Below are positions 3,622 through 51,693 of a stretch of DNA of 58,296 bases, piece after piece. Source of the stretch: a virus; IMG/VR virus record IMGVR_UViG_3300029240_000011. One strand, written 5' to 3'. The translations under genes were made by a program, and so were the position numbers. Each line of letters opens with the position of its first letter. Position 1 is the first letter of the stretch. The notes under the pieces are model-generated. The model was not told the origin of the DNA. It ran no database searches and saw only the letters and a list, made by a program, of their open reading frames with translations.

Positions 3622-6600
3622 TACACGACACCCCCGATCAAAATATTCGCTCCGCTGCTGCGGCTGGCCTTGTCTACAGATTTCTTGAGCTGCTTCCCGT
3701 CCAAGTACACCCCAGACTTATTTAGGATGGCGCGCAGCAGCTCATTCTGCTCCTGCAAAAGAGCGTTTTGCTCTGCATTTGCATCGGCCACACCGTAGCG
3801 GATGCCTTCCACGATCTGCGCGTTGTTGGCAACCGCAGTTCGCTTCCCGATTTGTCCCACCAACTCAGGGCCAGCTTCCCGCGCCAAAAACAGTTCCCCT
3901 GTATCTGGGAATCCGCCGGAAGCATATCCCTTTGTGCTCCCAGATCCGCCCGAAACGTTTCGGGTCACAATCGTATGTACGGTTGTAATGTTGCGAGGAA
4001 TTGCATTAAGAGCACTGATAATGGACTGAATTTGCGCGTTGCTCTGTTTCGCCATTGTGCGGAAGTTATTTGTTGTCTGTGTGATAAAAGTCTTCAGTGC
4101 TGTGTCTACCGTCTCGATGGAGGCAAGGACATCCGTTTTAATGCTTTCCGTAGAAGTCTTTGTCTGGATGACAAATTCGGAATAATCGGTATTCATTGCA
4201 TCTGTCTGCACGCTGAACTGATCTGCCACCTGCTGGAACTGATCCGTGACACCAGTGAAATCAAAGGTCTTTTCCCAGTTGAGTCCTTCGCCATCGATTT
4301 TCGCATTGCGGATGGTTTCCAGCCGCGCAGCCTCTTCAAAGTCTCCGGATTCTTTCGCCGCGTTAATCAGTGCCATGTAGTTTGTACCGGGGTCATAGGA
4401 AATTCCATTGAACACCTTTTGCACGCTGTCCGCGATCCCCTGCGCCGCCGCTGTGATGGCGGGTGTGCTCTGAGAAATACCCTTTGCAATATCAGAACCC
4501 AAACTAACTCCAATGCCTTTAGCATCTCCAAAACCAATAATGTATCCTTGACGGGAATCAAGTCCTGATTCTTCAAATGCTTTAGAAGGCGAATGCGAAT
4601 CAATTCCTTCTTTGCTCCTAAATCCGGCAAGTAACAGTTGCGCAAAATCTTTACCTGTATCCCATAAAGAACCGAGTCCCTTTACAAGGCCATCAATAGC
4701 ATCTTGACCAAGCTGCTTCCACGTTTCGAGAGAAAAAAGAGGTTTCACTTTTTCATTGTACCAGTTCGAAATATTGGTTGTGATTTCGTTAAACTTCTTT
4801 GCAGCAAATTGGGGCAGCCAATCGCAAAATTCTTCCCAAGCATTCCCAATAAAATCCATTGCATTGTTAAAATTGGTTCGTACACTCTCAAGCCCTTCGC
4901 TTGTTAAAGTCTTTACATTCTCCCAAATAGGCGCCCAATCTTCTACAACTCCTTCGCAAAACAGATCCCAATGGGATTTCATCTCTCCGGTTTCCAAATC
5001 AATATATTTGGACATCTCACCAAGTTCAGTTTGCGCAGTAATTTTAGTCGCTTCAAATGTTTCTTCTGCTTTTGACTTCGCTGCTTCCAGATTACTTTCT
5101 GCCGCTCTCCTCATATCACCATATGCTGCATCTGTAATCAACCCGGCATCTTTTAGCTTTTGCAACTGAAAAATTGTGTCATTATATAGGGATTCAGCTG
5201 CAGCAACAGATTCATCTCTTGCAGAAGCAGCATTCTTTATAATCTCAGCTGCTTGCAACGCTGTTAGATCAGCAGCATTATCTTTCATGTTCTGCAAAAT
5301 AACATTTGCTTCTGTTTGGGTATCAGATAAATATTGAATTCCCGTATCCTTCATAGACGCTTGAATACTGGAAATTTGCGCTGCTTCTTCTGCAGTTAAA
5401 GCCCTATTCTCAGCAGCTGCCGCAGCAATAATTTTGTTAATTTCTGCTTCGCCATCTGTAACTGCCTTGATTTGCTCATCATATCCCCTGGCAACATTTG
5501 CACTGTATTCAGCGAATTTATCAGCCCCCAAAGCATTCCTCAACGGCTCCAAGTTTTTAAGCGCTTCGTTTTTATCAGCACTTAGAGAATTTACAATCGT
5601 GTCCGTGATACTGCTAAGCTGTGATTGAATATTAGAAACATCTGAGTCTGTGATAACTATATTTCCCCATTCAAGCGTTTTAATGGAGGAATCAAGTGTA
5701 TCCATTGCATCGATAAATGGTTCAACGTTATCTCTTGTCGCCGCGCTTATACTGTCTCCAAATAAGTCTACTGGCTGGATAATGTCCTCTGTCGCTTTTC
5801 CTATGGCTTTGATTCCGAGGACAATCCCCTCAATTGCCAGTCCAGCAGGGCCAAACAGAAGAAGCCCTCCCAGCGTAATAGCCAGATCGCTTACTCGAAT
5901 AAATCCACCTGTTGCATTCTCTAACGCTTCATTGATCCCTTTCCAGCCAAATTCAAAATCTGGGAAAACAGACGACACCAGATTTACAATTGGTTTCGTA
6001 AAATCACCTATAATTTCAATAATCCCCGCAATACCATGCTGAAACAGTTTACTTTTCGTTACCGTATCCAGAAGTCCAGCACCTAAAAGTGCAATTCCAG
6101 AAACTGTAGCAGCTATCGCTGCAATGCACGATGCAAGGCTTGCTCCGCCAGCCCCCATAATAGCTGCGCCGAGTCCGTTCTTGAAAACACCAGAAGTAAG
6201 AAGTTTAGCCAATTTCTCAATAGGTGCATAAACCGCCGGTACGAAGCCAACTAATGCAGGAAGTTTACTGCTCTTGTTTGCTCCTATCAATGCATTTTTT
6301 AACATCAATGCATTGACATATGCCTTTTTCAGTCCAGATGCTAATAGGCCCAAATTACCCAAAAGGGATGGCCCCAGTTTCCACGCAAGAAACCCAGCAG
6401 ATACCAGACCTATAATAGGGAGAATATCTTTGACCTTCTCTTTCAGCTCGTCCACTTGTCTGGTAATGTTTTTCAGCACAGATTCATCCCAAACACTATC
6501 CAGATCCCAGTCTTTTTCCCATCCAGCGCCGCCCACTGCACCACTGCCGCCGGAAGCGCCTGCCCCTGTATCGGGCTTAATAATATTTAATTCGTCAATC

Positions 6601-12905: not shown

Positions 12906-13131
12906 GTATATACCGCCTTTCTAAAATGTTATTTTCACCTTATATGTTGACCCAGGGCAGGGGAGTAAGGTGGCACCTCCCTTTTCGGCCCGTCGGCCTA
13001 TCCCTGGCGTTCAACCAATGTTGTGAGAGACAGCGATATCCGTTTGCCTCTCAAATGGTAGATTCTAAATCAAAATCTCCGCTATCCATATATTCGGTTG
13101 TCAAGGTACAATTTATTGGAATGGATGGAAA

Positions 13132-22078: not shown

Positions 22079-22237
22079 GTTTATTTCAGTTTTCCTCAAA
22101 GGAAGAACTATTTTTATGTTTTTATGACATCCTTTGCAATATGGATAAACAGTTCCATTTGCATCGTCTTCTACTTCCATAAGCTTTCTTCGGATACCGG
22201 CGGCGGCACATATTGGGCAAAAAACATTTACCTTCAA
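22055..22237 (-). CDS. small zinc-ribbon protein (Mu Com-like pattern CPxC...CxxC)
   Basis: 60 aa, VFCPICAAAG...YPYCKGCHKNIKIV. TTG start. The 3' end runs into the repeat. Confidence 0.45.
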   Translation of the reverse strand: MKVNVFCPICAAAGIRRKLMEVEDDANGTVYPYCKGCHKNIKIVLPLRKTEINQCQVPLP

Positions 22238-22263
22238 TCAACCGCCCACCTTTCCTGAAAATT

Positions 22264-22337
22264 TGGAGCAGCGCACGGGTCTTGAACCCGTACCATCAGC
22301 TTTGAAAGCTGGTATGCGCCAATTACACCAGCGCTGC
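22264..22337 (-). tRNA. tRNA with anticodon UCA (opal suppressor type), CCA encoded
   Basis: Hand-folded cloverleaf: 7/7 acceptor pairs, 5/5 T stem with loop TTCAAGA, 4-bp D stem with GG in the loop, anticodon loop TT-TCA-AA, 4-nt variable loop, discriminator T. Confidence 0.8.
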
Positions 22338-22501
22338 AAATAGCCCTCGTAACAGGGCTATGTTGTGTGATTATCAGGATTTGCACACCGTCCTATACAT
22401 GCGCCATTTGTTTTCTCCCACTATACAGCGCAAGATACAATGGGAAAAGTGTCTCTTCCACAGCCAGCAAACCAGATTGGTTTATTTCCGCTTTTGCGGA
22501 T

Positions 22502-22578
22502 TGGTGGCACGGGGTGGGCTTGAACCGCCTTGTGCTCCCATCTGAGAGCCTATGCCCATCCATTCGGACATCCGTACC
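22502..22578 (-). ncRNA. tRNA-like element / tRNA pseudogene (acceptor, D and T arms present; non-canonical anticodon arm)
   Basis: GGTACGG/CCGTGCC acceptor stem + A + CCA. D stem GTCC/GGGC. T stem has one C-A mismatch. The anticodon region folds as GCTCTC-agat-GGGAGC, or with an 8-nt loop. Confidence 0.55.
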
Positions 22579-22654
22579 GTATTTGGGCCTCCGGCGATGT
22601 ACCGTCGGCCCGCTTACTCTCTCCCGAAATACTATATATTGTATTTCTTTTTTA

Positions 22655-22683
22655 ATTATACCACAATATAATGTGTTTGTAAA
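22655..22683 (-). promoter_or_regulatory. strong sigma-70-type promoter TTTACA-17-TATAAT (TG-extended) driving the tRNA locus
   Basis: Read directly. It is a near-duplicate of 31466..31494. Confidence 0.7.
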
Positions 22684-24957: not shown

Positions 24958-25623
24958 TCAGGCATTATTTTGATCCAGTCCATACTTTTCTAACAACTCC
25001 CTCTTTTTCGAATCATACGCGGACTTTGCACTTTCAATAGACAGAAAACCCGTTTTTACCCAGCGTTCTCCAGAAACCTGAACGGCTACTCTGTATGTCT
25101 TGCCATTCTTTTCCAACATAACGCCACGCACACCGGTTTTGCTTCTTATCATCGCCTTATCTGACTTCACCGCCGCAATATCCGCACGTTTTGTTCCGCC
25201 CGTTTCTACGAACTTGGCCTTAACAGCAAGATCAGAGTATTTCTTCATTTCCTCGCTTTTGTATTGCTGGCAGCCGCATCCTTTTGGCTTATTCCTTATC
25301 GTCTGCGCGGGGAACTCTTTTTCAGATCCGCACATGGAACACTTGCACAGATACAGCGCGTTCCTGTGCTTGTCAATTCCGGTTCGCTTTAATACAGTCA
25401 GCGCACCATAGATTTTTCCGGTAAGATCTGCTGTTTTCTCACGCTTCTTGCATCCACAGTCTTTCTTTGGCGATTTTTTATCGGTTAACCGTTGGCCCTC
25501 CACGACGCACTCATTTCCGCATCTGCGACATATGCACCGCCAAAGCATGGCGCCTTTGGGCGAGCGCCCAGCGGGTTCTATTACTGTCAGTTCCCCAAAC
25601 CTTTGGCCGATGAGGTCTTTCAT
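24958..25623 (-). CDS. homing-endonuclease-like DNA-binding protein (two Zn-ribbon modules + C-terminal AP2 domain)
   Basis: LIGQRFGELTV, WRCICRRCG...DCGC, CKCSMCG...GCGC, then TGVRGVMLEKNGKTYRVAVQVSGERWVKTGFLSIESAKSAYD. Confidence 0.6.
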   Translation of the reverse strand: MKDLIGQRFGELTVIEPAGRSPKGAMLWRCICRRCGNECVVEGQRLTDKKSPKKDCGCKKREKTADLTGKIYGALTVLKRTGIDKHRNALYLCKCSMCGSEKEFPAQTIRNKPKGCGCQQYKSEEMKKYSDLAVKAKFVETGGTKRADIAAVKSDKAMIRSKTGVRGVMLEKNGKTYRVAVQVSGERWVKTGFLSIESAKSAYDSKKRELLEKYGLDQNNA

Positions 25624-25793
25624 CTTACTCACCAAAACCACCCTCTTTTTGTTTTGTGCGGCGATTTTTCAATGCGCCTTTTTTTCACGGGATTTTAGAA
25701 AGCTCTCCTTTCCAGCACATACCACTGGATCTTACTAATCCCAATCTGCTTACAGGCGGCCTCCACTGTGATGGAGCCGTCTTTTTTTATTTT

Positions 25794-26939
25794 TTAGGAT
25801 ATTGTCGTTTTTGGCCTACCAGCGGTAACTTTCGGCGTGGTTAATGCCTCGTATGGTGTCATGCCCATTTTCTTAATGCGGTAAGATACAAAAGAAAAGC
25901 TCAATCCGTATTGCTCGCACCAATCAATGGCCGACTTCGTTTCTCCATTAATCTCCCATTCCAGTTTCCGTTTCCTGCTCCGCTTTTTGGTTGGTCTTGC
26001 GGTAAATGTATATTTCGGATGTTGATTGTTTGCTTGCGCCTTTGCATCAGCCCACCTACAATTATCTGGTGAGTACCCTTTGTCGTTATCAATTCGGTCT
26101 ATTGATAAATTATCGGCATACCCATGCGACAGAGCCCAATCCCTAAACGCAAACACATCCTCTCTCCATTCATCACAAATGTCTATTCCTCGCCCACCGT
26201 ATGTTTTCCACGCATGGTTTTTGTGGTTATAACACCGCTCTTTCATTCCGCTCCAAATTCTGTATATCCTATCTTTTGATAATCCATGTGTACTAATAAG
26301 GGACTTATGATGAATACAATCTGCTTTTCCACAACTCTTTATTGTCCCATTTTCAAAAAGCACCGGATTTACTTCAACTGATCTACCGCAATCACATCTG
26401 CACACAAACATCTTTTTGCGTTTTCCAACAACGGTTAGATGGTATTTTCGAACACCTCTCCATTTTTCTATATCAAACTTTCCTCGGTTTGTTTGGCAAA
26501 TACAAACCATAGGATTTTCTCTCAACAAAAACTTTGGAGCGTGGTAATTCTCTGCACCACAAAAGGTACATCTCGTTTTCCAGCCGAATCCCGTTTTATA
26601 TCCAATTATCTCCCAGCATCCAATTTTCTGCCCAATCCACTTTGGGTTGCTTGGCAAATTTTCTCTTTTAATCCTTGCGGTTTCCTTTTCCGCTGCTATT
26701 CTTTTTCTTGTTTCACACCCACAAATCCCTTGATTCTTCCCTTTCGCATAATCTTTCCCGTTATGCGTGACTTTCTTCCTTCCGCACTTCTGACAGGTTA
26801 GCTCCCACATCTGTTTATGTGTTTCCCAATCATACCAAACACGGGTAACTTCAAAATCGCCGTACACTTTCCCGATTCTGTCAGAATAAAACTGATCCTG
26901 CATTTCAAGAACCTGTTTCTTGTTTGCCTCGTTAAACAT
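25794..26939 (-). CDS. homing-endonuclease-like protein (three Zn-ribbon modules + IDRIDNDKGYSPDNCRW module + HTH)
   Basis: 381 aa. Paralogous to 19737..20498. ATG overlaps the recombinase stop. Confidence 0.55.
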   Translation of the reverse strand: MFNEANKKQVLEMQDQFYSDRIGKVYGDFEVTRVWYDWETHKQMWELTCQKCGRKKVTHNGKDYAKGKNQGICGCETRKRIAAEKETARIKRENLPSNPKWIGQKIGCWEIIGYKTGFGWKTRCTFCGAENYHAPKFLLRENPMVCICQTNRGKFDIEKWRGVRKYHLTVVGKRKKMFVCRCDCGRSVEVNPVLFENGTIKSCGKADCIHHKSLISTHGLSKDRIYRIWSGMKERCYNHKNHAWKTYGGRGIDICDEWREDVFAFRDWALSHGYADNLSIDRIDNDKGYSPDNCRWADAKAQANNQHPKYTFTARPTKKRSRKRKLEWEINGETKSAIDWCEQYGLSFSFVSYRIKKMGMTPYEALTTPKVTAGRPKTTIS

Positions 26940-27597
26940 CCCCCTTTTTTACCCCCTTTTTGTTTCGGCTCTCCAGCGGAGGCAACCCGTGTTCCGCCCG
27001 ATACTTCGCAACTGCCTTATAGTAGGTGTTTGGACGCAACCCCAACTTTTCCATCGCCCACTTGTTCGTCCTCCCATCAGACAGAACTTCTTTGTAGGCT
27101 GCATCGAAAGCCACCTCATCTATTTCAATCGGCTTTCTTCCTTTATATGCGCCTCTGTCCTTAGCAAGAGCAATCCCTTGGGCCTGCCGCTCATGCGTGT
27201 TGATTCTTTCCTTCTCAGCCACATACGAAAGAACTTTCAATACAATATCAGCAATCAGCGTTCCTGTGAGATCGTTCGTTTTCCTGGTATCCAAAATGGG
27301 CATATCCAGCACAACAATATATGCTCCGATCTCCTTCGTGATATGTTCCCACTGTTTTCCAGTCTCAGTGTAATTTCTTCCGAGCCGGTCAAGGCTGCAC
27401 ACAAAAACCGTATCACCCTTTCGGATTACAGTCATCATCGCGTTCCATTTGTCCCGGTTGTAGTCCCGCCCGCTCTCTTTATCAATGAAGATGTACCGCT
27501 CCGGCACTCCGGCCTCTTTCAGCATTTTAGTCTGCCGCTCCTCATTTTGGTCTTTCGAGGACACCCGCGCATATCCAACACAAATGCTCTCAGCCAT
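26932..27597 (-). CDS. small serine recombinase (resolvase/invertase family)
   Basis: MAESICVGYARVSSKDQNEERQ...VFVCSLDRLGRN catalytic-domain motifs plus a C-terminal HTH. AAGGAGG SD before ATG 27597. Confidence 0.85.
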   Translation of the reverse strand: MAESICVGYARVSSKDQNEERQTKMLKEAGVPERYIFIDKESGRDYNRDKWNAMMTVIRKGDTVFVCSLDRLGRNYTETGKQWEHITKEIGAYIVVLDMPILDTRKTNDLTGTLIADIVLKVLSYVAEKERINTHERQAQGIALAKDRGAYKGRKPIEIDEVAFDAAYKEVLSDGRTNKWAMEKLGLRPNTYYKAVAKYRAEHGLPPLESRNKKGVKKGDV

Positions 27598-27627
27598 CCC
27601 ATCTCGCCTCCTTTTGTTTGCAAATTC

Positions 27628-27657
27628 ATTATAACAAATAATTTTGTTGTTTGTCAA
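27628..27657 (-). promoter_or_regulatory. consensus promoter TTGACA-18-TATAAT for the recombinase operon
   Basis: Read directly. Confidence 0.65.
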
Positions 27658-27874
27658 CATGTTTTTTGCTTTTTTTAATTTTTCTGTGGTAGGGGGGCTC
27701 AGGTGGTGGGTGGCCGCCCTGTCCTATCCCCCTGGGGTGCCCGGCGGCCCGTTATCCTTGTAATACCTTGATTATCTGGGGTATACCCATACCAAACAGC
27801 CCACATATATATAATAATAATTTGGCACAAATCGCAACTACTCAAAAAATAAATAAAAATATTTGTAAATTCTG

Positions 27875-27903
27875 TTGACTACATCAAGCAAATATGTTAT
27901 CAT
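27875..27903 (+). promoter_or_regulatory. promoter TTGACT-17-TATCAT (plus strand)
   Basis: Read directly. Precedes the 43-aa ORF. Confidence 0.55.
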
Positions 27904-27956
27904 ATAATCACAGCAAGGGAAACCGCGCTGAATCTACCGGGCAGGAGGTACACGAA

Positions 27957-28088
27957 ATGGAGACTGATAGCATGACCCAGACCGAGTTAGCATCTTACCT
28001 TGAAACCCTGGCGAAACTGGTAGAGGCCACAGCCAAAGACCCGCAGGATGCGGCCCGCATTATCCGGGAAGCCATTCCAAAGCAGTAA
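27957..28088 (+). CDS. small hypothetical protein (43 aa)
   Basis: GCAGGAGG SD. METDSMTQTELASYLETLAKLVEATAKDPQDAARIIREAIPKQ. Confidence 0.5.
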   Translation: METDSMTQTELASYLETLAKLVEATAKDPQDAARIIREAIPKQ

Positions 28089-28301
28089 AAAAGATAGCCG
28101 CCCTACCCTTAACAAGTAAGCGGCTATCTAACAAAGAACACGGGGCGGCATGGCCTGCCACATGTCGCCCTCAGTGTAACACAACCGGCAGGGAAAGGCA
28201 AGAGCCGCAAGGAGACCGAAGAATGGAGGTGACCCCCGCTTGATTGTCCTGTTTGTCTTGCTCCTCCCGCTTATGGTGATCTGGGAGACGGCGAAAAAAT
28301 C

Positions 28302-28330
28302 TTGACTGCCCTAAGCGGGCGCGATACAAT
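28302..28330 (+). promoter_or_regulatory. promoter TTGACT-17-TACAAT (plus strand)
   Basis: Read directly. Precedes 28376..28675. Confidence 0.55.
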
Positions 28331-28375
28331 CAACACAACGGAGCCCGGCAAAGCCTGGGGAAAGGACGGCATAAT

Positions 28376-28675
28376 ATGACTACTACGTTATATATCACCC
28401 GCACCGGCGATATGATCCAGACGGGCAAGCCCGCAGAGGTAACACTTGAGGAGTACCCGGAAATTAGCCGGACATGGATCCGGCGCGTTACTGTGGAGCT
28501 GCCCGCAGGGTTTGAGGCGGCAGAGGCCGGAGACGGAAGGAAGCGCATTTTTCGCGGCCCTGATTGCTACGAGCTGACCGCTAACGTGGACGACGTGCCC
28601 TGCATCATCGACCACACCCAGAGAGGTGGTCCGTTTATCCCGCTCCGCGTCCTGTCTGAGGGATGGGACATCTAA
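28376..28675 (+). CDS. hypothetical protein (99 aa)
   Basis: Track ORF on the opposite strand to the phage backbone. Followed by a terminator. Confidence 0.55.
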   Translation: MTTTLYITRTGDMIQTGKPAEVTLEEYPEISRTWIRRVTVELPAGFEAAEAGDGRKRIFRGPDCYELTANVDDVPCIIDHTQRGGPFIPLRVLSEGWDI

Positions 28676-28689
28676 CAATATCTTCACTG

Positions 28690-28724
28690 CCCACCCTGGG
28701 CTTTCCCGGGGCGGGTTTTCTTTT
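28690..28724 (+). terminator. rho-independent terminator
   Basis: CCCaCCCTGGG-cttt-CCCGGGGcGGG followed by TTTTCTTTT. Confidence 0.7.
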
Positions 28725-28996
28725 GTCTATGCCCTTGTATTCCCCTCATGCTCCACGCCGCTTGTATGGCCTCCTATGGCCCACAGGCGGCATTATTGCG
28801 CCCATGTCCGGCAAAGCGGAGCCGACCGCAAAAAGCAACGCCGCAAAGGCCATTTACAGACCTTACACGGCGTTTTATCGCTATGCAGTGTCTCTGTATA
28901 TCCCATAGCACCAAACGGCATATATCGGCTCTCAGAGCGCCCCACAGCGCACAAAGCAACCCCGACCCGCTCCGCATGGAGTAGGACGGGGTATTG

Positions 28997-29224
28997 TCAT
29001 TTGTTGCGGGCCAGGTATAGGACGGCGCAGCGGGGGCCGTCGCACTCCCCGCCGATATACTCCACGCGGGGCGGCTCTCCATCGGCCTGACACTTAATCA
29101 CGCCAACTTTCAGCGCTGCGGCCAGATCCGGCTCCGGGTCATATTTGTTATAGTTGCACAAATCGCCAAAGTGTTTTCCCGAGAATTTGCGATACCCGCT
29201 TGTGCAATTTACTGGTGATAGTCG
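28997..29224 (-). other. start-less 75-codon ORF in frame with TerS, directly after its TGA stop
   Basis: Codon-by-codon reading: TGA then RLSPVNCTSGYRKFSGKHFGDLCNYNKYDPEPDLAAALKVGVIKCQADGEPPRVEYIGGECDGPRCAVLYLARNK then TGA. No ATG/GTG/TTG lies near its 5' end in this frame. Confidence 0.4.
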
Positions 29225-29752
29225 TCACTCCTCCACCACCACAGACCCGGCGATCCGCTCTTCAAGCTGTTTCTGGTCTGGAGAGTCGCCGAGGGGCTGA
29301 TTCGGGGTGAGAACCAGGTCTTGAACATCTTTCATGCCATAGAAGTTCTTAGACCTAAAAATATACGTAGTCTCCGGGATTTTGCGTCCAAGCACCAATT
29401 CTGCGTCGATATTTGATAAAATTTGTTTCGCTTTTTTTATCATGTTCGACCTCGCGGAACTGCATCCATTCCCATTTTCCCATTCCCAAACAGTAGACCG
29501 AACAGCGCCCAATGCAAGGCACATCTTCTCAACGGTAGGGATTTCCCCGGTTCTTCCACACTCTGCAAAGAACTCATTCAGTCTGTCTGCACACTCATCA
29601 TCAGACTTAACAATCTGCTTATTAAACCACTTGTAAGAGTTCCTGACGATTTGAGCGATTTCTTCTTTCTTTGCTGTGGTAGTCGCTTCAATGGAGGCTG
29701 ACTTCGACCCTCTTTTCCTGACGGGCTGTGTCATAGTCACATCCTGCTCCAT
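29225..29752 (-). CDS. terS: terminase small subunit
   Basis: ...FFAECGRTGEIPTVEKMCLALGAVRSTVWEWENG...TYIFRSKNFYGMKD, the TerS HTH + oligomerisation pattern. Start at MEQDV (the track ORF is longer). Confidence 0.7.
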   Translation of the reverse strand: MEQDVTMTQPVRKRGSKSASIEATTTAKKEEIAQIVRNSYKWFNKQIVKSDDECADRLNEFFAECGRTGEIPTVEKMCLALGAVRSTVWEWENGNGCSSARSNMIKKAKQILSNIDAELVLGRKIPETTYIFRSKNFYGMKDVQDLVLTPNQPLGDSPDQKQLEERIAGSVVVEE

Positions 29753-30182: not shown

Positions 30183-30281
30183 TGTTCAAAGATTTAGGTA
30201 CGCCCCCGGCTCCTGCAACTGCGGGGCGGCATATTTGAGCGGGTGAGGATTTGCACCTCACATGTCAGCATTATGTGGCTT

Positions 30282-30607
30282 TTACCTATGCGCTTTCTCC
30301 TCAGTGCGCTTCGGGGCTGAACATACCTTTATGCGTCTACTATTGCTGGAAATCACACCAGCTTTACCACAATTAGTGTCTATTCCGCCACCGCTCAATG
30401 GTTCCAGACCGGCCAGCATCTTTTCGCCAGCCACATGGCACATCCGGCTTAAATGGCCGTTGATGTGTGCACAGCTCCATGCGCTTAGCTTCTCGCGCTT
30501 CAATATTGATTACAATTATTTCTGTTCTTGCAAAACCAGCATCCATCCTGTCCCCACCAGTACCAGTCCGGCATGGACGGTTTTGGTTTACGCTTTGCCT
30601 TACCCAT
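30282..30607 (-). pseudogene. Cys/Trp-rich small gene split into two overlapping frames (35-aa SD-ATG ORF ending TGA at 30500; 73-aa ORF in the -1 frame from 30503)
   Basis: Own translation: MGKAKRKPKPSMPDWYWWGQDGCWFCKNRNNCNQY*, then (I)LKREKLSAWSCAHINGHLSRMCHV... The second ORF has no SD. Confidence 0.4.
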
Positions 30608-30774
30608 TATGCACTCCAATTTTTTGTGCGCTTCCCGCTTAGATTGCCACACCATCAATCAGTCAGCTACATGCCATTTGGCGGTTCACTGTCCTACGGT
30701 AGTTTTCAGCGAGCATTTTCATTCTCTCTGAGGTGTTGCGCTACGCTCAGATCATCCGGGAGCGACCCGGCCAC

Positions 30775-30850
30775 TGGAGCCACCGGGAGGACTTGAACCT
30801 CCAACTTACCGATTACAAGACGGTTGCTCTACCAGTTGAGCCACGATGGC
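30775..30850 (-). tRNA. tRNA-Thr (anticodon UGU), CCA encoded
   Basis: GCCATCG-TG-GCTC-AACTGGTA-GAGC-A-ACCGT-CTTGTAA-TCGGT-AAGTT-GGAGG-TTCAAGT-CCTCC-CGGTGGC-T-CCA. One U-U mismatch at 31-39. Confidence 0.85.
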
Positions 30851-31033
30851 TTATAATAGCGGCATACTTTCTCAGGCTCTCGAAGTCCCGTTGCGGTATG
30901 CCAGCGCGCCGCGCTCCTGATCGGCTTGCCTGTGTTGCTCTCCACAGCTTCGCAGTTGCTATCGGTCTGTGTTCCGTCCGGCTTCCACGGATGGGAATGA
31001 CCCAGCAGTTCGGTGGAAGTCATGGCACCTCCA

Positions 31034-31109
31034 CGGAACCTGCAAGATTTGAACTTGCGATCTCTACCCCTTTCGGTTAAGCGACGGATTCCGCCCCGTC
31101 CCAGGCTCC
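31034..31109 (-). ncRNA. tRNA-like module inside the structured RNA (76 nt; acceptor, D and T arms good; anticodon arm replaced by a GAAA-capped irregular hairpin)
   Basis: GGAGCCT/AGGTTCC acceptor, GACG/CGTC D stem, GCAAG-TTCAAAT-CTTGC T arm. No CCA. Confidence 0.5.
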
Positions 31110-31277
31110 ACATGTCCCCGTCTTTCCGGGGTGTCATTCTCCACTGGTGGCCAGTTATTCCCCCAGTTGGGCCACTCCGCGCGACGCCATCAGGCGTTTC
31201 GGTGCGTTACTACCTCATCAGGCGCTTTTTTCTGGGGCTAGATGTTGCCTGCACATGGAGAAGTTGGCAACCCACGC

Positions 31278-31339
31278 TGGTGCCGCATGGAGGGTGCGAC
31301 CCTCCGACCCGGATAAGTGGGCTGATGCGCTCACGCGGC
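31278..31339 (-). ncRNA. truncated tRNA-like module (62 nt; acceptor GCCGCGT/ATGCGGC + A + CCA, GGAGG-GTCGCAC-CCTCC arm; no D arm)
   Basis: Hand-folded. Confidence 0.4.
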
Positions 31340-31465
31340 ATATTTCGCCGTTATTGCCGCCACGGACGCGGGCGGGTAAGGAGGGGAAAAAGAAGTATGG
31401 AATACGCCTTTATCCTCGGAAGAATGTGCACGTGTCTGCAGCACATATTCTCTGCTTCCTTCTTT

Positions 31466-31494
31466 ATTATACCACAATATCTTGTGTTTGTAAA
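31466..31494 (-). promoter_or_regulatory. strong sigma-70-type promoter TTTACA-17-TATAAT (TG-extended) driving the structured RNA + tRNA-Thr
   Basis: Read directly. ~36-nt near-identity with 22650..22690. Confidence 0.7.
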
Positions 31495-31530
31495 TCAAAT
31501 TACAGATTTTTGTATCAATATCTTGTGCTT

Positions 31531-31740
31531 TCAGGAGTTGTCAAACGCCCTCCGCACCATATCTTGTATCTGATCGCTTGTATAAAGGTTTTCTTCTGTT
31601 CCTCCCTTTTTGCACCAAAAGTCTGCATCCGTCATGCATCCAGTGACCTTGCACCGCCCCCATGTTCGGCCGTCTTCTCCTATCACAGGCTCGTTCGACC
31701 ACCACTTACACGCGGCGCAGGGTATCGCTTCCACTGTCAT
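31531..31740 (-). CDS. hypothetical Cys-rich protein (69 aa)
   Basis: Track ORF. Confidence 0.5.
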   Translation of the reverse strand: MTVEAIPCAACKWWSNEPVIGEDGRTWGRCKVTGCMTDADFWCKKGGTEENLYTSDQIQDMVRRAFDNS

Positions 31741-32800
31741 CTATTTCCCTCCTGTCCATTTCCATCACTGCCAGAATGGCATAGTTTGCAAGATCCAGCA
31801 GCGTGTCCCGGAGCGATTCGTCCTTCACCTGCTGGCTATCCCCTCGCGTCAGTGCCTTGACACGGTTCAACTTGTCCGAAAGCCGAATACGCACCATTGG
31901 CCAGCCTTCTTCTGCGAAGGTCTGGTGGAAACTGTCTCCATAGTCATGGTTTTTGCGTTCAAACAGTGCGGTCAGCTCGTTGCAAATCTTCTTGTGCAGC
32001 TGCAGAGGGGCCTGCACTGTATATGGCACCCAGCAAGTGCCGCCCTCTTTTCTGTTCTGGCAATCCACGTTTTCGCCCCAGTCGCAAAAGGGGCCTCCGT
32101 GAGCACAGTCGCAGCACATACCCTCCACAGTGTTGGCCGTGTTGGCCTCCTCCTTAACCGGTGTCGCAACAAACGACCATTCAAAGACATCTGTTGGATC
32201 GTTCAATTCCATAAAACATTGTTTCCCGTTGTAATATTCTCCGGGTTTATGATTGCAACTCCCGGTACTATCTCCGCAAATGGAACAGGTTCTTGTTGCT
32301 ACTGAGCATCCAATGCTGACTTCTTTCTTTTTTCCGCTCTTGATTTCCTCGATGACCTTGAAATTTTCCGGGATATTCTTGATGGACGCATTGGCCTTGA
32401 TAAACCACTCGCCGTCTTTCCCTTTAAGGACTACTGTGGAAAGAATTTTTGCAATACTGTCTTGGCCTACAAAACCGTTTTTACCGACAAACATTTCAGA
32501 CAGTTTACGCAAACACGGAAGTGTAAACCTCTCAAAATCTCTATCGATCTTGGTATCACAAAGACGGATTTCAAACTTATAGTATTCCGGCTCATCCTCC
32601 ACCGCCTCATAGCCCATCAGGCGGGCGGCTTCGTAAGGGTTGGCTCTTACGTATTCATGACACGGCTTCTTTGTCCCTGCGTATTGCTGCACGGGTTCCC
32701 GAAGCTCGCAATAGTCGCAATCTTTTTTGCTATCGCAAAACTGCTCTAATGCCTGGTCAATGGTAAGTGCGATTTCACCCGTCTTACTCCGAAACTTCAT
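31706..32800 (-). CDS. fusion-type protein with C-terminal DUF1599-like (MazG-like all-alpha) domain
   Basis: ...LFERKNHDYGDSFHQTF...RLSDKLNRVKAL...ESLRDTLLDLANYAILAVME. AAGGAGG SD before ATG 32800. Confidence 0.55.
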   Translation of the reverse strand: MKFRSKTGEIALTIDQALEQFCDSKKDCDYCELREPVQQYAGTKKPCHEYVRANPYEAARLMGYEAVEDEPEYYKFEIRLCDTKIDRDFERFTLPCLRKLSEMFVGKNGFVGQDSIAKILSTVVLKGKDGEWFIKANASIKNIPENFKVIEEIKSGKKKEVSIGCSVATRTCSICGDSTGSCNHKPGEYYNGKQCFMELNDPTDVFEWSFVATPVKEEANTANTVEGMCCDCAHGGPFCDWGENVDCQNRKEGGTCWVPYTVQAPLQLHKKICNELTALFERKNHDYGDSFHQTFAEEGWPMVRIRLSDKLNRVKALTRGDSQQVKDESLRDTLLDLANYAILAVMEMDRREIDDSGSDTLRRV

Positions 32801-51547: not shown

Positions 51548-51693
51548 TTGAACACGTCCTTATGTAAAAAATAAGGAGGATCGTGAGGAGGGTGGCGACG
51601 TGTACCAACCCTAAATCCCCACGTCCTCCATGCCTATATTGTCGCAGAAAAATACCCCGGCTGGGGTTGATCCCAGTCGGGGTTATGTATGAT

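What the first reader, a model, noticed from the sequence alone, without database searches (positions are those of the whole stretch)
30851..31494. Promoter-driven ~600-nt ORF-free structured RNA ending in tRNA-Thr: candidate large ornate ncRNA in the packaging region
A near-consensus promoter (TTTACA-17-TATAAT with TG extension, 31466-31494, minus strand) fires into ~610 nt with no credible coding frame. The track ORFs here are alternate-frame and R/P/C/G-rich, with no SD. The transcript runs straight into a canonical tRNA-Thr(UGU) at 30850-30775.

The segment is visibly more G+C-rich than its flanks (not computed). It is dense with helices I could pair by eye:
- GGAGGGT-cgc-ACCCTCC
- CCCCG-gaaaga-CGGGG
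- GTTGCC/GGCAAC
- GTGGCC/GGCCAC
- a 13-bp helix GGTTCCGTGGAGG/CTTCCACCGAACT
- AGCGC-ggc-GCGCT
- a closing helix GGCATAC...GTATGCC just before the tRNA
- a direct GCCTGATG duplication.

Large ornate RNA classes such as GOLLD and ROOL are known to reside in Firmicutes prophages next to tRNA genes, so this is the obvious hypothesis. If it matches neither class, it is a new large phage RNA.
Basis: partly seen in the sequence, partly recalled or inferred. Interest (0 to 1): 0.85.

Follow-up and report, generated by a model that had tools for sequence, protein, structure and literature searches.

The report
Modular tRNA-bearing phage leader RNA
The flagged stretch is the variable middle of a longer (about 840-nt) promoter-driven, gene-free phage transcript that strings together a real tRNA, a decayed tRNA and a highly conserved 60-nt tRNA-shaped element absent from Rfam, just ahead of the DNA-packaging genes; it is a genuine structured RNA but not one of the known giant RNAs.

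Summary
The promoter, the tRNA-Thr, the higher G+C and the absence of a coding frame are all real. No Rfam 15 family matches, even at E<=10 (GOLLD, ROOL, HEARO, raiA and hammerhead are families I recall being in Rfam). ARAGORN finds no tmRNA.

Related phage contigs show that the 610 nt are not one unit. Only two blocks are widely conserved and covary:
- a 60-nt four-way junction at 31340-31281 (>100 IMG/VR stretches). It is tRNA-shaped, and it sits in the same slot that holds a tRNA, or nothing, in sister phages.

The stretch between them is mosaic. It contains a decayed tRNA (31110-31033) and a hammerhead-like consensus match that has no independent homologues.

An almost identical promoter (27 of 29 bases) at 22683-22655 drives a second ORF-free tRNA locus.

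Best reading: a late/packaging-operon leader of Oscillospiraceae phages that carries tRNA and tRNA-mimic cassettes, probably cut out by RNase P and RNase Z. This processing is inferred, not shown.

The family is not in Rfam, and its function is unknown. Interest is moderate.

The parts
31466..31494 (-). Sigma-70-type promoter with extended -10. The spacer holds an inverted repeat, CACAA-GATA-TTGTG, that looks like an operator.
   Evidence: 11/12 matches plus TG; a second copy (27/29 identical) at 22655-22683, 0 expected by chance. The promoter is conserved in L042, L010, L099 and L037.
31343..31459 (-). 5' leader. It has a 5' hairpin and a C/U-rich tract, CUUCUUUUUCCCCUCCUU (31395-31378), that resembles an anti-Shine-Dalgarno sequence, followed by a hairpin.
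   Evidence: Sequence. Comparable C/U-rich tracts between hairpins occur in the leaders of other family members.
31281..31340 (-). Conserved tRNA-like four-way junction ('core 4WJ'). Its parts are P1 (7 bp, acceptor-like), a mini-hairpin, P2 (GCCC/GGGY with a 7-8-nt loop AC..AUCM) and P3 (GGAGGG-UCGCA-CCCUCC, T-arm-like). ACCA follows at 31281-31278.
   Evidence: More than 100 IMG/VR stretches. In alignment A1, 96% of cells are paired and 6 pairs change on both sides, against about 40% paired in slid controls. The covariance model scores 79 bits here, and its weak hits include both true tRNAs of the window. The element occupies the slot of a tRNA in L005.
31244..31271 (-). Hairpin GUUGCC...GGCAAC, part of the variable segment.
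   Evidence: Present in the sequence. Found only in near-identical relatives, so it is untested.
31179..31225 (-). Hammerhead-like type I consensus match: GCGC-CUGAUGA-GGU..ACC-GAAA-CGCC UGAU GGCG-UC|GCGC. The predicted cut is between C31183 and G31182. Stem I could extend through CCCCAG (31237-31232) and CUGGGG (31166-31161).
   Evidence: The descriptor search matches only this locus and 4 near-identical copies, and gives 0 matches in 2.1 Mb of shuffled sequence. No Rfam model reports a match here at E<=10, including the hammerhead models I recall being in Rfam. There are no sequence differences from L037 across this part, so no covariation test is possible.
31110..31131 (-). Leader hairpin CCCCGG-AAAGA-CGGGG followed by ACAUGU. 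This is the same 'GC hairpin + ACAUA' punctuation that precedes tRNAs and the 4WJ in other loci.
31033..31110 (-). Degenerate tRNA (pseudo-tRNA). It has a 7-bp acceptor stem (GGAGCCU/AGGUUCC), a D-arm and a canonical T-arm (GCAAG-UUCAAAU-CUUGC). The anticodon arm has collapsed to CC-GAAA-GG.
   Evidence: ARAGORN calls it only at a relaxed threshold (-ps95). It is not called by default or by the Rfam tRNA model.
30851..31032 (-). Variable spacer. It holds hairpins CUUCCAC/GUGGAAG, AGCGC-GGC-GCGCU and GGCAUAC...GUAUGCC, and complementary loops AUGAC/GUCAU.
   Evidence: with only two distinct sequences and therefore low power. It is 86% identical in the L037 group and absent from most other loci.
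30775..30850 (-). tRNA-Thr(UGU) with an encoded CCA.
   Evidence: ARAGORN. Rfam tRNA model, 66.5 bits.
30626..30774 (-). Conserved 3' domain. It runs: post-tRNA hairpin CCGGG-UCGCU-CCCGG (30770-30756); hairpin UCUGAG/CUCAGA (30751-30727); then the '3' element'. The 3' element is CUCGCU (30713-30708), GAAAAC (30707-30702), a variable hairpin (30700-30651), GUGUGGCAAUCUA, and AGCGGG (30639-30634).
   Evidence: Conserved right after the tRNA in 28-29 loci. In alignment A2, helix 2 is 97.6% paired, helix 3 is 84% paired with 3 covarying pairs, and slid controls give 24-56%.
30500..30607 (-). First downstream gene, a 35-aa basic Cys-rich protein (MGKAKRKPKPSMPDWYWWGQDGCWFCKNRNNCNQY). It marks the 3' limit of the non-coding unit.
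   Evidence: Homologues follow the RNA in L037, L099 and L135. The differences from L037 are mostly synonymous.

Best explanation
The finding lies inside a single transcription unit of about 840 nt. The unit runs from the promoter at 31466 to about 30626 and is the untranslated leader of the packaging (terS...) gene block of a temperate Oscillospiraceae siphophage.

The unit has a conserved frame. The frame consists of a promoter, a hairpin-rich leader with an exposed C/U-rich tract, and a conserved 3' element. Between these parts cassettes are inserted. Here the cassettes are a 60-nt tRNA-like four-way junction, a hammerhead-like segment, a decayed tRNA, spacers and a functional tRNA-Thr.

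The four-way junction keeps the features that bacterial RNase P, RNase Z and the CCA-adding enzyme read: a 7-bp acceptor-like helix, a T-arm-like helix, U at -1, G at +1 and, in this window, ACCA. It has lost the features needed for decoding.

Most likely mechanism (inferred, not shown): the strong and probably operator-controlled promoter makes a long precursor. Host RNase P and RNase Z cut at the tRNA, the pseudo-tRNA and the tRNA-like junction. This releases tRNA-Thr and one or more small stable structured RNAs, and separates the leader from the downstream mRNA.

Shown here: the promoter, the lack of coding, the covarying structure of two modules, the tRNA likeness, the interchangeability of slot contents, and the genomic context. 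Inferred: transcription through the whole unit, processing, and any trans function.
For: Promoter: it is duplicated almost exactly in front of a second tRNA-bearing ORF-free locus. No terminator-like site lies on the minus strand between 32500 and 29500.

Mosaic structure: promoter plus 4WJ recur in L042, L010, L099 and L037; the tRNA plus the 3' domain recurs in 28-29 loci; the middle recurs in only 6-7 near-identical loci.

Four-way junction:
- It covaries.
- G.U pairs (GGGUGG/CCAUCC in L125; GCCC/GGGU in the window) fix the functional strand as the window's minus strand.
- Its covariance model picks out both true tRNAs of the window among its weak hits, aligning P1 to the acceptor stem and P3 to the T-arm.
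- Its flanks, AUAU|GCC...GGC-A-CCA-G, mirror those of tRNA-Thr, UAUAA|GCC...GGC-U-CCA-G.
- With an identical leader, the slot holds the 4WJ in L035, an ARAGORN-called tRNA in L005, and nothing in L006 and L008.
- About 33 of the 36 tRNAs found in 2.1 Mb of related loci lie within 500 nt of a 4WJ on the same strand. About two dozen of them, with four different anticodons, lie exactly 47 nt downstream.

Other parts: the pseudo-tRNA is supported. The 3' element covaries, and 40 of 44 copies have a 4WJ within 800 nt upstream.

Context: the RNA always shares the strand of the packaging genes. It lies directly upstream of terS (this window; L139) or about 350 nt downstream of terL (L158 group).

Precedent: bacterial RNase P processes phage-encoded non-tRNA RNAs, namely P4 CI RNA, P1/P7 C4 RNA and phi80 M3 RNA (PMC5499578).
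Against: - No expression or end-mapping data exist, so transcription from the promoter and every cleavage are inferences.
- The 4WJ is not recognised as a tRNA by ARAGORN, even in mitochondrial mode, or by the Rfam tRNA model.
- Only 7 of 36 distinct 4WJ variants are followed by CCA.
- The covariation comes from few independent events in a tight family: mean column identity is 82%, and no divergent members were found.
- The conservation of the loop sequences (AC..AUCM, UCGCR) and of the 3' element's unpaired GAAAAC and GUGACAAUCUA is not explained by a mere processing signal. It points to an additional partner or tertiary fold.
- 47 of 89 4WJ copies have no 3' element within 800 nt downstream, and some 3' elements have no 4WJ, so the 'frame' is loose.
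Confidence: 0.5

Rival explanations
1. One large ornate RNA. The conserved 5' junction and 3' element belong to a single tertiary fold, possibly multimeric as in ROOL and GOLLD. The tRNA and other modules are tolerated insertions in a variable region. On this view the RNA acts as a whole particle during lytic growth.
For: - The architecture is conserved ends with a variable middle holding tRNAs. By my recollection of the GOLLD literature, this resembles GOLLD.
- 40 of 44 3' elements have a 4WJ upstream.
- Modules with complementary 7-nt hairpin loops (GUCAUAG/CUAUGAC) recur in relatives, and an AUGAC/GUCAU pair occurs in the window.
- The minimal frame RNA of L008 folds far better than shuffles (z = -5.3).
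- The niche is the same: a prophage, next to tRNAs.
Against: - Each conserved end occurs without the other: 47 of 89 4WJ copies lack the 3' element, and L006 and L008 have the 3' element without a 4WJ.
- The distance from the 4WJ start to the end of the 3' element ranges from 199 to 704 nt, with wholesale module swapping.
- The window's 610-nt fold has a z-score of only -1.86.
- I did not test for long-range covariation between the two ends, so there is no evidence for it.
- No Rfam large-RNA model gives even a weak hit.
Confidence: 0.2
2. A purely cis-acting regulatory leader of the late/packaging operon. It would work by processive antitermination in the manner of put or EAR RNA, or by masking downstream ribosome-binding sites with the exposed C/U-rich tract. 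The tRNAs would be passengers.
For: - It always shares the strand of terS/terL/portal and lies just upstream of them.
- The two near-identical promoters carry an operator-like inverted repeat and stand in front of the two halves of the structural block.
- The single-stranded CCUCC-type tract between two hairpins has an architecture like that of anti-SD small RNAs. The match to Yfr1 is only at chance level, E = 2.6.
- No terminator separates the RNA from the genes.
Against: - No terminator was found for an antiterminator to overcome.
- The 4WJ also occurs right after a tRNA array (L109) and in front of different tRNAs at a fixed 47-nt spacing. This fits a tRNA-type cassette better than an operon-specific regulator.
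- Nothing here tests RNA polymerase or ribosome binding.
Confidence: 0.15
3. A cluster of self-cleaving ribozymes that trims the tRNA precursor. It would comprise the hammerhead at 31225-31179, possibly with unknown ribozymes in the 4WJ or in the post-tRNA hairpin. The theta (HDV-like) ribozymes at tRNA 3' ends in gut phages would be the analogy.
For: - All conserved hammerhead core positions and three stems are present, with 0 matches in shuffled sequence.
- RAGATH-31, a motif class defined by association with twister and hammerhead gene neighbourhoods (my recollection), is in the same phage.
- Conserved structure starts immediately after the CCA of the tRNA. That is where theta ribozymes sit (PMC10879173).
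Against: - No Rfam ribozyme model (the hammerhead, HDV-like, twister, twister-sister, pistol and hatchet models that I recall being in Rfam) reports a hit even at E<=10.
- The hammerhead-like segment occurs only in one near-identical lineage, so it has no covariation support.
- Stems I and II are minimal (4 and 3 bp).
- By manual threading, the post-tRNA sequence cannot form the HDV-type P1/P1' pairing in this window.
- The 4WJ helices are perfect and lack the internal loops of the known four-way-junction ribozymes.
Confidence: 0.06
4. A DNA-level element (cos/pac site or regulatory DNA), or a decayed or unusual protein-coding region.
For: ORF-free regions upstream of terS often hold cos sites in HNH-associated phages (general knowledge), and HNH genes are nearby. 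Open frames of 100-240 codons exist on both strands.
Against: - Compensatory changes and strand-specific G.U pairs indicate selection on an RNA.
- Loop-length indels of 1-2 nt, loss of the ATG in three variants (ACG in L022, L099 and L282) and a 94-nt insertion break every frame.
- The mechanical ORFs have no Pfam hit.
- A cos site could still coexist; I could not test this.
Confidence: 0.04

Closest known systems
GOLLD and ROOL large ornate RNAs (Rfam families)
   Same: They are prophage-borne, promoter-driven, ORF-free RNAs several hundred nucleotides long and lie next to tRNAs. By my recollection, GOLLD has a conserved part plus a variable part that can hold a tRNA.
   Different: No sequence or structure match to either covariance model, even at E<=10. 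Here the conserved parts are small (60 nt and about 90 nt), are separable, and each occurs without the other. There is no evidence of one large fold.
Phage tRNA clusters with co-transcribed tRNA-like stable RNAs (for example the T4 tRNA-region species 1 and 2 RNAs; own knowledge)
   Same: tRNAs and non-decoding tRNA-like RNAs are made from one strongly transcribed, ORF-free unit and are presumably matured by host RNase P.
   Different: The host group differs (Oscillospiraceae phages) and there is no sequence relationship. Here the unit is fused to the leader of the packaging genes and has a conserved non-tRNA 3' element.
RNase P-processed phage regulatory RNAs: P4 CI RNA, P1/P7 C4 RNA, phi80 M3 RNA (PMC5499578)
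   Same: They are small structured RNAs cut out of a phage leader transcript thanks to an acceptor-stem-like helix. P4 CI comes from the leader of the operon it controls (own knowledge).
   Different: Those substrates are hairpin-like and lack a T-loop equivalent. The 4WJ has four helices, including a T-arm-like one. I found no complementary target sequence that covaries with it. Processing is untested.
Theta (minimal HDV-like) ribozymes at tRNA 3' ends of gut phages (PMC10879173)
   Same: They are conserved structured RNAs that directly abut phage tRNAs in gut Caudoviricetes and are proposed to act in tRNA maturation.
   Different: The theta hosts are about 90% Bacteroidota. The nested double-pseudoknot topology is not met here by manual threading, and no Rfam model hits. 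The 4WJ usually lies upstream of the tRNA, not at its 3' end.
Type I hammerhead ribozyme
   Same: The segment 31225-31179 has the CUGAUGA...GAAA core, closed stems II and III, an open stem I and a GUC cleavage triplet.
   Different: No Rfam hammerhead hit, very short stems, and no independent homologues. It is a candidate only.
Unnamed candidate structured RNAs predicted from IMG/VR (PMC10690425)
   Same: That survey was drawn from the same data source and lists tRNA-like candidates and candidates upstream of terminase genes.
   Different: I could not check whether these modules are among its 10,006 unnamed candidates. None is named or characterised there.

Membership tests
GOLLD RNA | Match to the Rfam covariance model (conserved 3' half with its pseudoknots) | tested here: not met
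   No hit at the gathering threshold in the window or in 13 related loci. No hit at E<=10 over 30300-31900. That a GOLLD model is in Rfam 15 is my recollection.
ROOL RNA | Match to the Rfam covariance model | tested here: not met
   no hit at any threshold. That a ROOL model is in Rfam 15 is my recollection.
HEARO / raiA / OLE / T-large and other large Rfam RNAs | Match to the respective Rfam model | tested here: not met
   only tRNA and chance-level hits. That these families are in Rfam 15 is my recollection.
tmRNA | tRNA-like domain plus a tag reading frame, as detected by ARAGORN or Rfam | tested here: not met
   ARAGORN reports tRNA and tmRNA genes and finds two tRNAs and no tmRNA in the window. 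Rfam reports no tmRNA hit.
Hammerhead ribozyme (type I), for 31225-31179 | Conserved core nucleotides C3-A9, G12-A14, the A15.1-U16.1 pair and H17 | tested here: met
   The descriptor match is GCGC-CUGAUGA-...-GAAA-...-UC|GCGC. It gives 0 matches in 2.1 Mb of shuffled sequence.
Hammerhead ribozyme (type I), for 31225-31179 | Score against the curated covariance models, and covariation of the three stems in homologues | tested here: inconclusive
   No Rfam hammerhead hit at E<=10 on a 201-nt search. The only homologues are identical over this part.
Hammerhead ribozyme (type I), for 31225-31179 | Self-cleavage after H17 | not testable with these tools
   This needs in vitro transcription and a cleavage assay, or mapping of 2',3'-cyclic-phosphate ends.
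Canonical tRNA, for the 4WJ at 31340-31281 | Cloverleaf with a 7-bp acceptor stem and a T-arm | tested here: met
   P1 is 7 bp and P3 is T-arm-like, with the loop reading G-UCG-CAC. Model R1 aligns these to the acceptor stem and T-arm of both true tRNAs.
Canonical tRNA, for the 4WJ at 31340-31281 | Standard D-arm, 5-bp anticodon stem, 7-nt loop with U33 and a purine at 37, and detection by tRNA finders | tested here: not met
   The 'D-arm' has 2-3 bp with a 3-5-nt loop. The 'anticodon' stem has 4 bp with a 7-8-nt loop AC..AUCM, giving C at position 33 and C at position 37. It is not called by ARAGORN in default, relaxed or mitochondrial mode, or by the Rfam tRNA model.
Canonical tRNA, for 31110-31033 | Detection by a tRNA finder and an intact anticodon arm | tested here: inconclusive
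   It is called only at the relaxed ARAGORN threshold. The T-arm is canonical (UUCAAAU) and the acceptor stem has 7 bp, but the anticodon arm has collapsed. It is therefore a pseudo-tRNA.
HDV-like / theta ribozyme, for the sequence after the tRNA-Thr CCA | Cleavage-site G1 directly at the tRNA 3' end, and a nested double pseudoknot (P1, P1.1, P2, P3, P4) with a catalytic C in J4/2 | tested here: not met
   A G does follow the CCA. However, no P1' complement of GUGGCC exists downstream in the window (manual threading), and no Rfam model hits here at E<=10.
RNase P non-tRNA substrates (P4 CI / P1 C4 type) | Acceptor-like helix with a 3' NCCA, U at -1 and G at +1 | tested here: met
   The window reads AUAU|GCCGCGU...AUGCGGC-A-CCA. 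CCA follows in only 7 of 36 variants.
RNase P non-tRNA substrates (P4 CI / P1 C4 type) | Actual cleavage by RNase P | not testable with these tools
   This needs an in vitro RNase P assay or in vivo 5'-end mapping.

The most novel reading that the evidence does not exclude
The frame (regulated promoter, leader and 3' element) plus its interchangeable inserts is a previously unrecognised RNA system of gut Clostridia phages. In this reading it is a cassette platform. tRNAs and a dedicated, non-decoding tRNA mimic (the 60-nt four-way junction) are swapped in and out, and the mimic has a trans function of its own. That function could be as a decoy or sponge for host tRNA-targeting defences or tRNA-processing enzymes, or as a subunit of a multimeric RNA that acts with the adjacent packaging machinery, as phi29 pRNA does.
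Probability: 0.2. Interest if true: 0.8.

Novelty: new variant of a known kind. Interest (0 to 1): 0.55.

Why it matters
Phage tRNA genes are usually read only as codon-usage or anti-defence accessories. Here they sit inside a conserved, covarying RNA scaffold that more than 100 gut-phage contigs share.

A 60-nt tRNA-shaped element takes the place of a tRNA while having lost the parts needed for decoding. If it is processed like a tRNA, it would be a compact natural RNase P/RNase Z substrate with its own unknown job. It would also be a new example of tRNA mimicry in phages of Oscillospiraceae, an abundant and poorly studied group of gut bacteria.

The 4WJ and the 3' element are well enough defined to become RNA family models. 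One carrier, the Muriventricola aceti H5_61 prophage, is in a named strain listed in GTDB, so experiments may be feasible.

The result also removes a false lead: this is not a GOLLD or ROOL relative.

Tried and rejected
- GOLLD, ROOL, HEARO, raiA and tmRNA: rejected by Rfam and ARAGORN.
- GenBank phage collection (blastn): only the tRNA part finds anything.
- HDV-like/theta ribozyme, for both the 4WJ and the post-tRNA hairpin: the helix order does not fit, because P1' would have to precede P4. No P1' exists after the tRNA in the window. I dropped this idea.
- Twister, twister-sister, pistol and hatchet for the 4WJ: no Rfam hit. The 4WJ helices have no internal loops.
- 4WJ as a decoding tRNA: rejected on loop size and on positions 33 and 37.
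- 4WJ region as a small ORF (43 aa, starting at the ATG in AUAUGCC): rejected. Some variants have ACG, and loop indels shift the frame.
- Translation with UGA or UAG read as sense, prompted by the phage's tRNA(UCA): no convincing frame appears, and the large phage genes are intact in the standard code.
- Conformational switch in the 'vA' subgroup, where GGGCCGAGAGG could pair with CCUCUC..GGCCC in the next hairpin: not seen in other subgroups, so not pursued.
- Genome ends (cos) inferred from where loci stop: invalid, because the ends of pattern-derived loci are storage blocks and not contig ends.
- Genome-contig scan: 63 of 65 hits were chance matches in high-G+C genomes. Only L266 and L282 are real.
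- Literature search by sequence strings: nothing found.
- Rfam on the minimal frame RNA of L008: only chance-level hits.
Full report
**1. Checking the observation**

- The promoter scan finds TTTACA-17-TATAAT with a TG extension at 31494-31466, matching 11 of 12 positions. It finds no terminator-like site on the minus strand between 32500 and 29500.
- ARAGORN and Rfam both call tRNA-Thr(UGU) at 30775-30850 on the minus strand.
- G+C is 0.56-0.59 across 30700-31449. It is 0.42-0.48 downstream and 0.46 just upstream.
- The mechanical ORFs in the interval have no Pfam match.
- The longest minus-strand frame (102 aa, 30829-31137) runs through a pseudo-tRNA into the tRNA. A 94-nt insertion interrupts it in the closest relatives.
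- The fold of the 610 nt is only marginally better than shuffles: z = -1.86, with 1 of 20 shuffles as good. The opposite strand gives z = -1.0.

So the features are real. 'Dense with helices' is not, on its own, more than chance.

**2. Known RNA families**

A scan of the whole window against Rfam 15 at gathering thresholds finds four things: the two tRNAs, a RAGATH-31 motif (51575-51629) and an int-alpA motif (12938-13008).
- Permissive scans at E<=10 of 30300-31900 and of 31160-31360 give nothing beyond the tRNA and chance-level hits.
- GOLLD, ROOL, HEARO, raiA and the self-cleaving ribozyme families, which I recall being in Rfam, are therefore not matched.
- ARAGORN finds no tmRNA.
- Thirteen related loci give only tRNAs, skipping-rope and int-alpA.
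- The GenBank phage collection matches only the tRNA part.

**3. What related phages show**

I fetched 105 IMG/VR loci through the two flanking proteins: the upstream DUF1599 protein and the downstream small terminase subunit. BLAST of the region against them shows a mosaic.
- Promoter plus the first ~185 nt recur in L042, L010, L099 and the L037 group.
- The part from about 31094 through the tRNA and beyond recurs in L042.
- L099 lacks nearly everything from 31277 to 30778, including the tRNA.
- The L037 group has a 94-nt insertion and lacks the tRNA.
- A ~65-nt core (31345-31278) recurs in otherwise unrelated contexts.

Re-blasting against all loci gave these counts:
- the core in 106 loci;
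- the sequence just downstream of the tRNA in 28-29 loci;
- the middle (31270-30860) in only 6-7 near-identical loci.

**4. The core is a covarying, tRNA-like four-way junction (31340-31281)**

Thirty-six distinct variants align with 82% mean column identity. The structure I tested has:
- P1, 7 bp;
- a 2-3-bp mini-hairpin;
- P2, GCCC/GGGY, with a 7-8-nt loop AC..AUCM;
- P3, six pairs, with loop UCGCR.

This structure is 96% paired, and 6 pairs change on both sides. Slid controls are 37-48% paired. P3 occurs as GGAGGG/CCCUCC, GAGAGG/CCUCUC, GGAUGG/CCAUCC, GGAAGG/CCUUCC and GGGUGG/CCAUCC. The G.U pairs fix the functional strand as the window's minus strand.

A caveat applies. The family is tight and the changes come from few events. 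A covariance model (R1) finds 16 copies in 100 protein-anchored loci, all above 79 bits, with nothing weaker.

With filters off, R1 scores the window copy at 79 bits. Among its weak hits are both genuine tRNAs of the window: tRNA-Thr at 11.8 bits and tRNA(UCA) at 10.3 bits. In both, P1 aligns to the acceptor stem and P3 to the T-arm. The flanks agree as well: AUAU|GCCGCGU...AUGCGGC-A-CCA-G for the junction, and UAUAA|GCCAUCG...CGGUGGC-U-CCA-G for tRNA-Thr.

The element is not a decoding tRNA. It has no normal D-arm, a 4-bp 'anticodon' stem, and C at the positions equivalent to 33 and 37. No tRNA finder calls it.

The strongest evidence that it is a tRNA equivalent is positional. With an identical ~80-nt leader, the slot after ...CCUCCUAU holds three different things:
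- the junction in L035;
- an ARAGORN-called tRNA with an odd anticodon loop in L005;
- nothing in L006 and L008.

L035 and L005 resume common sequence (AAUUUA...) right after the insert.

The junction is also tightly linked to tRNAs. About 33 of the 36 tRNAs that ARAGORN finds in about 2.1 Mb of related loci lie within 500 nt of a junction on the same strand. About two dozen of them (Gln, Thr, Trp or Gly) lie exactly 47 nt downstream. In L109 the junction follows a three-tRNA array by 2 nt.

**5. The RNA continues past the tRNA**

Conserved sequence starts immediately after the CCA:
- G(U/A)GGCCGGGU(C/A)GC(U/G)CCCGGA, a hairpin with a UCGCN-type loop like that of P3;
- a covarying hairpin;
- the '3' element': YC(Y)CGCU-GAAAAC-U-[variable hairpin]-GUGUGACAAU(C)UA-AGCGGG, often clamped by GCGC/GCGC and followed by ACAUA.

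In the window this runs to about 30626. That is just before the ribosome-binding site of a real 35-aa gene (ATG at 30607), whose differences from L037 are mostly synonymous.

On 28 distinct variants, the closing helix is 97.6% paired. The inner helix is 84% paired, with three pairs changing on both sides. Slid controls give 24-56%.

Forty of 44 3' elements have a junction within 800 nt upstream, while 42 of 89 junctions have a 3' element downstream. The distance from the junction start to the end of the 3' element ranges from 199 nt (L158 type) to 704 nt, the largest value seen, which occurs in this window.

The minimal form is leader plus 3' element only (L008, 171 nt). It folds into three hairpin domains with z = -5.3 and leaves a C/U-rich CCUCC-type tract single-stranded.

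**6. The variable middle of the window**

- Relaxed ARAGORN calls a degenerate tRNA at 31110-31033. It has a 7-bp acceptor stem and a canonical UUCAAAU T-loop, but a collapsed anticodon arm.
- It is preceded by CCCCGG-AAAGA-CGGGG-ACAUGU. This is the same 'GC hairpin + ACAUA' punctuation that precedes tRNAs and junctions elsewhere.
My descriptor finds it only here and in four near-identical loci, and gives 0 matches in 2.1 Mb of shuffled sequence.
- Against the hammerhead: no Rfam model reports it. The stems are minimal. The relatives are identical across it. It stays a candidate.
Its 5' half is the acceptor 3' strand of the pseudo-tRNA, and CUUCCAC pairs equally well with a downstream GUGGAAG.

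**7. Context**

The window is a temperate siphophage-type genome. In transcription order on the minus strand it carries:
- an endolysin;
- an integrase (on the plus strand);
- the replication genes, including SSB and the helicase;
- DNA methyltransferases and the DUF1599 protein;
- this RNA;
- TerS;
- a ~5-kb insertion;
- TerL, portal, capsid and tail genes.

A second, almost identical promoter at 22683-22655 follows the TerL stop codon. It drives another ORF-free stretch with a tRNA-like element and the tRNA(UCA), ahead of the portal gene.

The RNA shares the strand of the packaging genes in all loci. It lies directly upstream of terS here and in the abundant 'vA' subgroup, where L139 reads HTH regulator - promoter - leader - junction - 47 nt - tRNA - 3' element - TerS - TerL - portal. 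In the L158 subgroup it lies about 350 nt downstream of TerL.

Only two species-representative genomes carry the junction. Both are Clostridia: Muriventricola aceti (Oscillospiraceae) and Candidatus Ventrousia excrementavium.

**8. Interpretation**

The evidence fits a late/packaging-operon leader built as a conserved frame with cassette slots. The slots hold tRNAs, decayed tRNAs and a dedicated tRNA mimic.

The junction keeps what I understand bacterial RNase P, RNase Z and the CCA-adding enzyme to read, and has lost what decoding needs. I therefore infer that the precursor is cut at these elements, as bacterial RNase P does with P4 CI RNA, P1/P7 C4 RNA and phi80 M3 RNA (PMC5499578).

This inference is untested. 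It also does not explain the strict conservation of the loop sequences or of the unpaired parts of the 3' element, which suggest a further partner.

The rivals are a single large fold, a purely cis-regulatory leader, a ribozyme cluster, and a DNA-level element or coding region. I weigh them in the fields above.

**9. Novelty**

Neither module is in Rfam 15. A sequence-string search of the literature found nothing. A published IMG/VR survey lists thousands of unnamed candidates, including tRNA-like ones and ones upstream of terminase genes (PMC10690425). I could not check whether these modules overlap with it.

I rate this a new variant of a known kind: phage tRNA units with tRNA-like RNAs. There is a minority chance that it is a distinct RNA system.

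Noticed in passing
window 22230-22683 (-): A second, almost identical promoter (TTTACAAACACATTATATTGTGGTATAAT; 27/29 identical to the first) lies right after the TerL stop codon. It drives an ORF-free stretch that contains a tRNA-like element (GGUACGG...CCGUGCC-A-CCA, about 22575-22500), a GCUGUGGAAGAGACAC module, a T-arm-like GGUGUGCAAAUCCUG, and the tRNA that ARAGORN labels SeC(tca) at 22264-22337. That tRNA is probably a UGA-reading or suppressor tRNA. The large phage ORFs are intact in the standard code, so there is no sign of genome-wide recoding.
   Followed up: partly
window 30183-30500 (-): A third ORF-free stretch lies between the 35-aa gene and the 66-aa gene. It contains a ~165-nt tRNA-like element (acceptor UGAGCGG/CCGCUCA, T-arm GUGAGG-UGCAAAU-CCUCAC) and the hairpin AUAUGCCGCCCCGCAGUUGCAGGAGCCGGGGGCG. 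Both recur next to the four-way junction or the 3' element in other loci (L029, L211, L158, L014).
   Followed up: partly
window 30500-30607 (-); L099 about 4530-4640: This is a small basic Cys-rich gene (MGKAKRKPKPSMPDWYWWGQDGCWFCKNRNNCNQY) directly after the RNA. Its differences from L037 are mostly synonymous. The L099 homologue has an in-frame TAG where the others have CAG (Gln). That phage may read amber as Gln, or the gene there may be a pseudogene.
   Followed up: no
window 24958-29225 (-): TerS and TerL are separated by about 5 kb. The insert holds a 1.5-kb G+C-rich stretch (27678-29225) with no ORF of 120 aa or more and no Rfam hit at E<=1. It also holds a serine recombinase (26932-27660), whose end overlaps the start of a 381-aa HNH-endonuclease-like gene (25794-26939), in an IS607-like arrangement. 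A further 227-aa HNH gene lies at 24958-25641. The same insert is 100% identical at the protein level in L037, L065 and L081.
   Followed up: partly
window 51575-51629 (-) and 12938-13008 (-): A RAGATH-31 RNA (75 bits) and an int-alpA RNA (47.5 bits) score above the Rfam gathering thresholds.
   Followed up: no
window 31475-31488 and 22664-22677 (-); L008 about 4596-4612: An inverted repeat sits inside the spacer of the window's two promoters (CACAA-GATA-TTGTG and CACA-TTATA-TTGTG) and upstream of the -10 box in L008. Other subgroups carry different palindromes upstream of the -10 box (ATTCCC..GGGAAT, TTCACA..TGTGAA). This looks like an operator for a phage regulator, and an HTH gene often lies just upstream.
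   Followed up: no
L158, L221, L020, L152, L042 and others (module after the four-way junction); window 31025-30990: A recurrent module has two hairpins whose 7-nt loops are complementary (GUCAUAG / CUAUGAC, or GUCAUGG with a G.U pair). A weaker AUGAC/GUCAU pair occurs in the window's spacer.
   Followed up: no
L111-L222 'vA' subgroup (e.g. L139 6144-6505): Nearly identical flanks (junction plus a 47-nt hairpin upstream, 3' domain downstream) enclose different tRNAs in different contigs: Gln-UUG, Thr-CGU, Trp-CCA or Gly-CCC. Some contigs hold a non-tRNA acceptor-stem element ending in ACCA instead (L184, L126, L099). This is cassette-like exchange of the tRNA within a fixed scaffold.
   Followed up: partly
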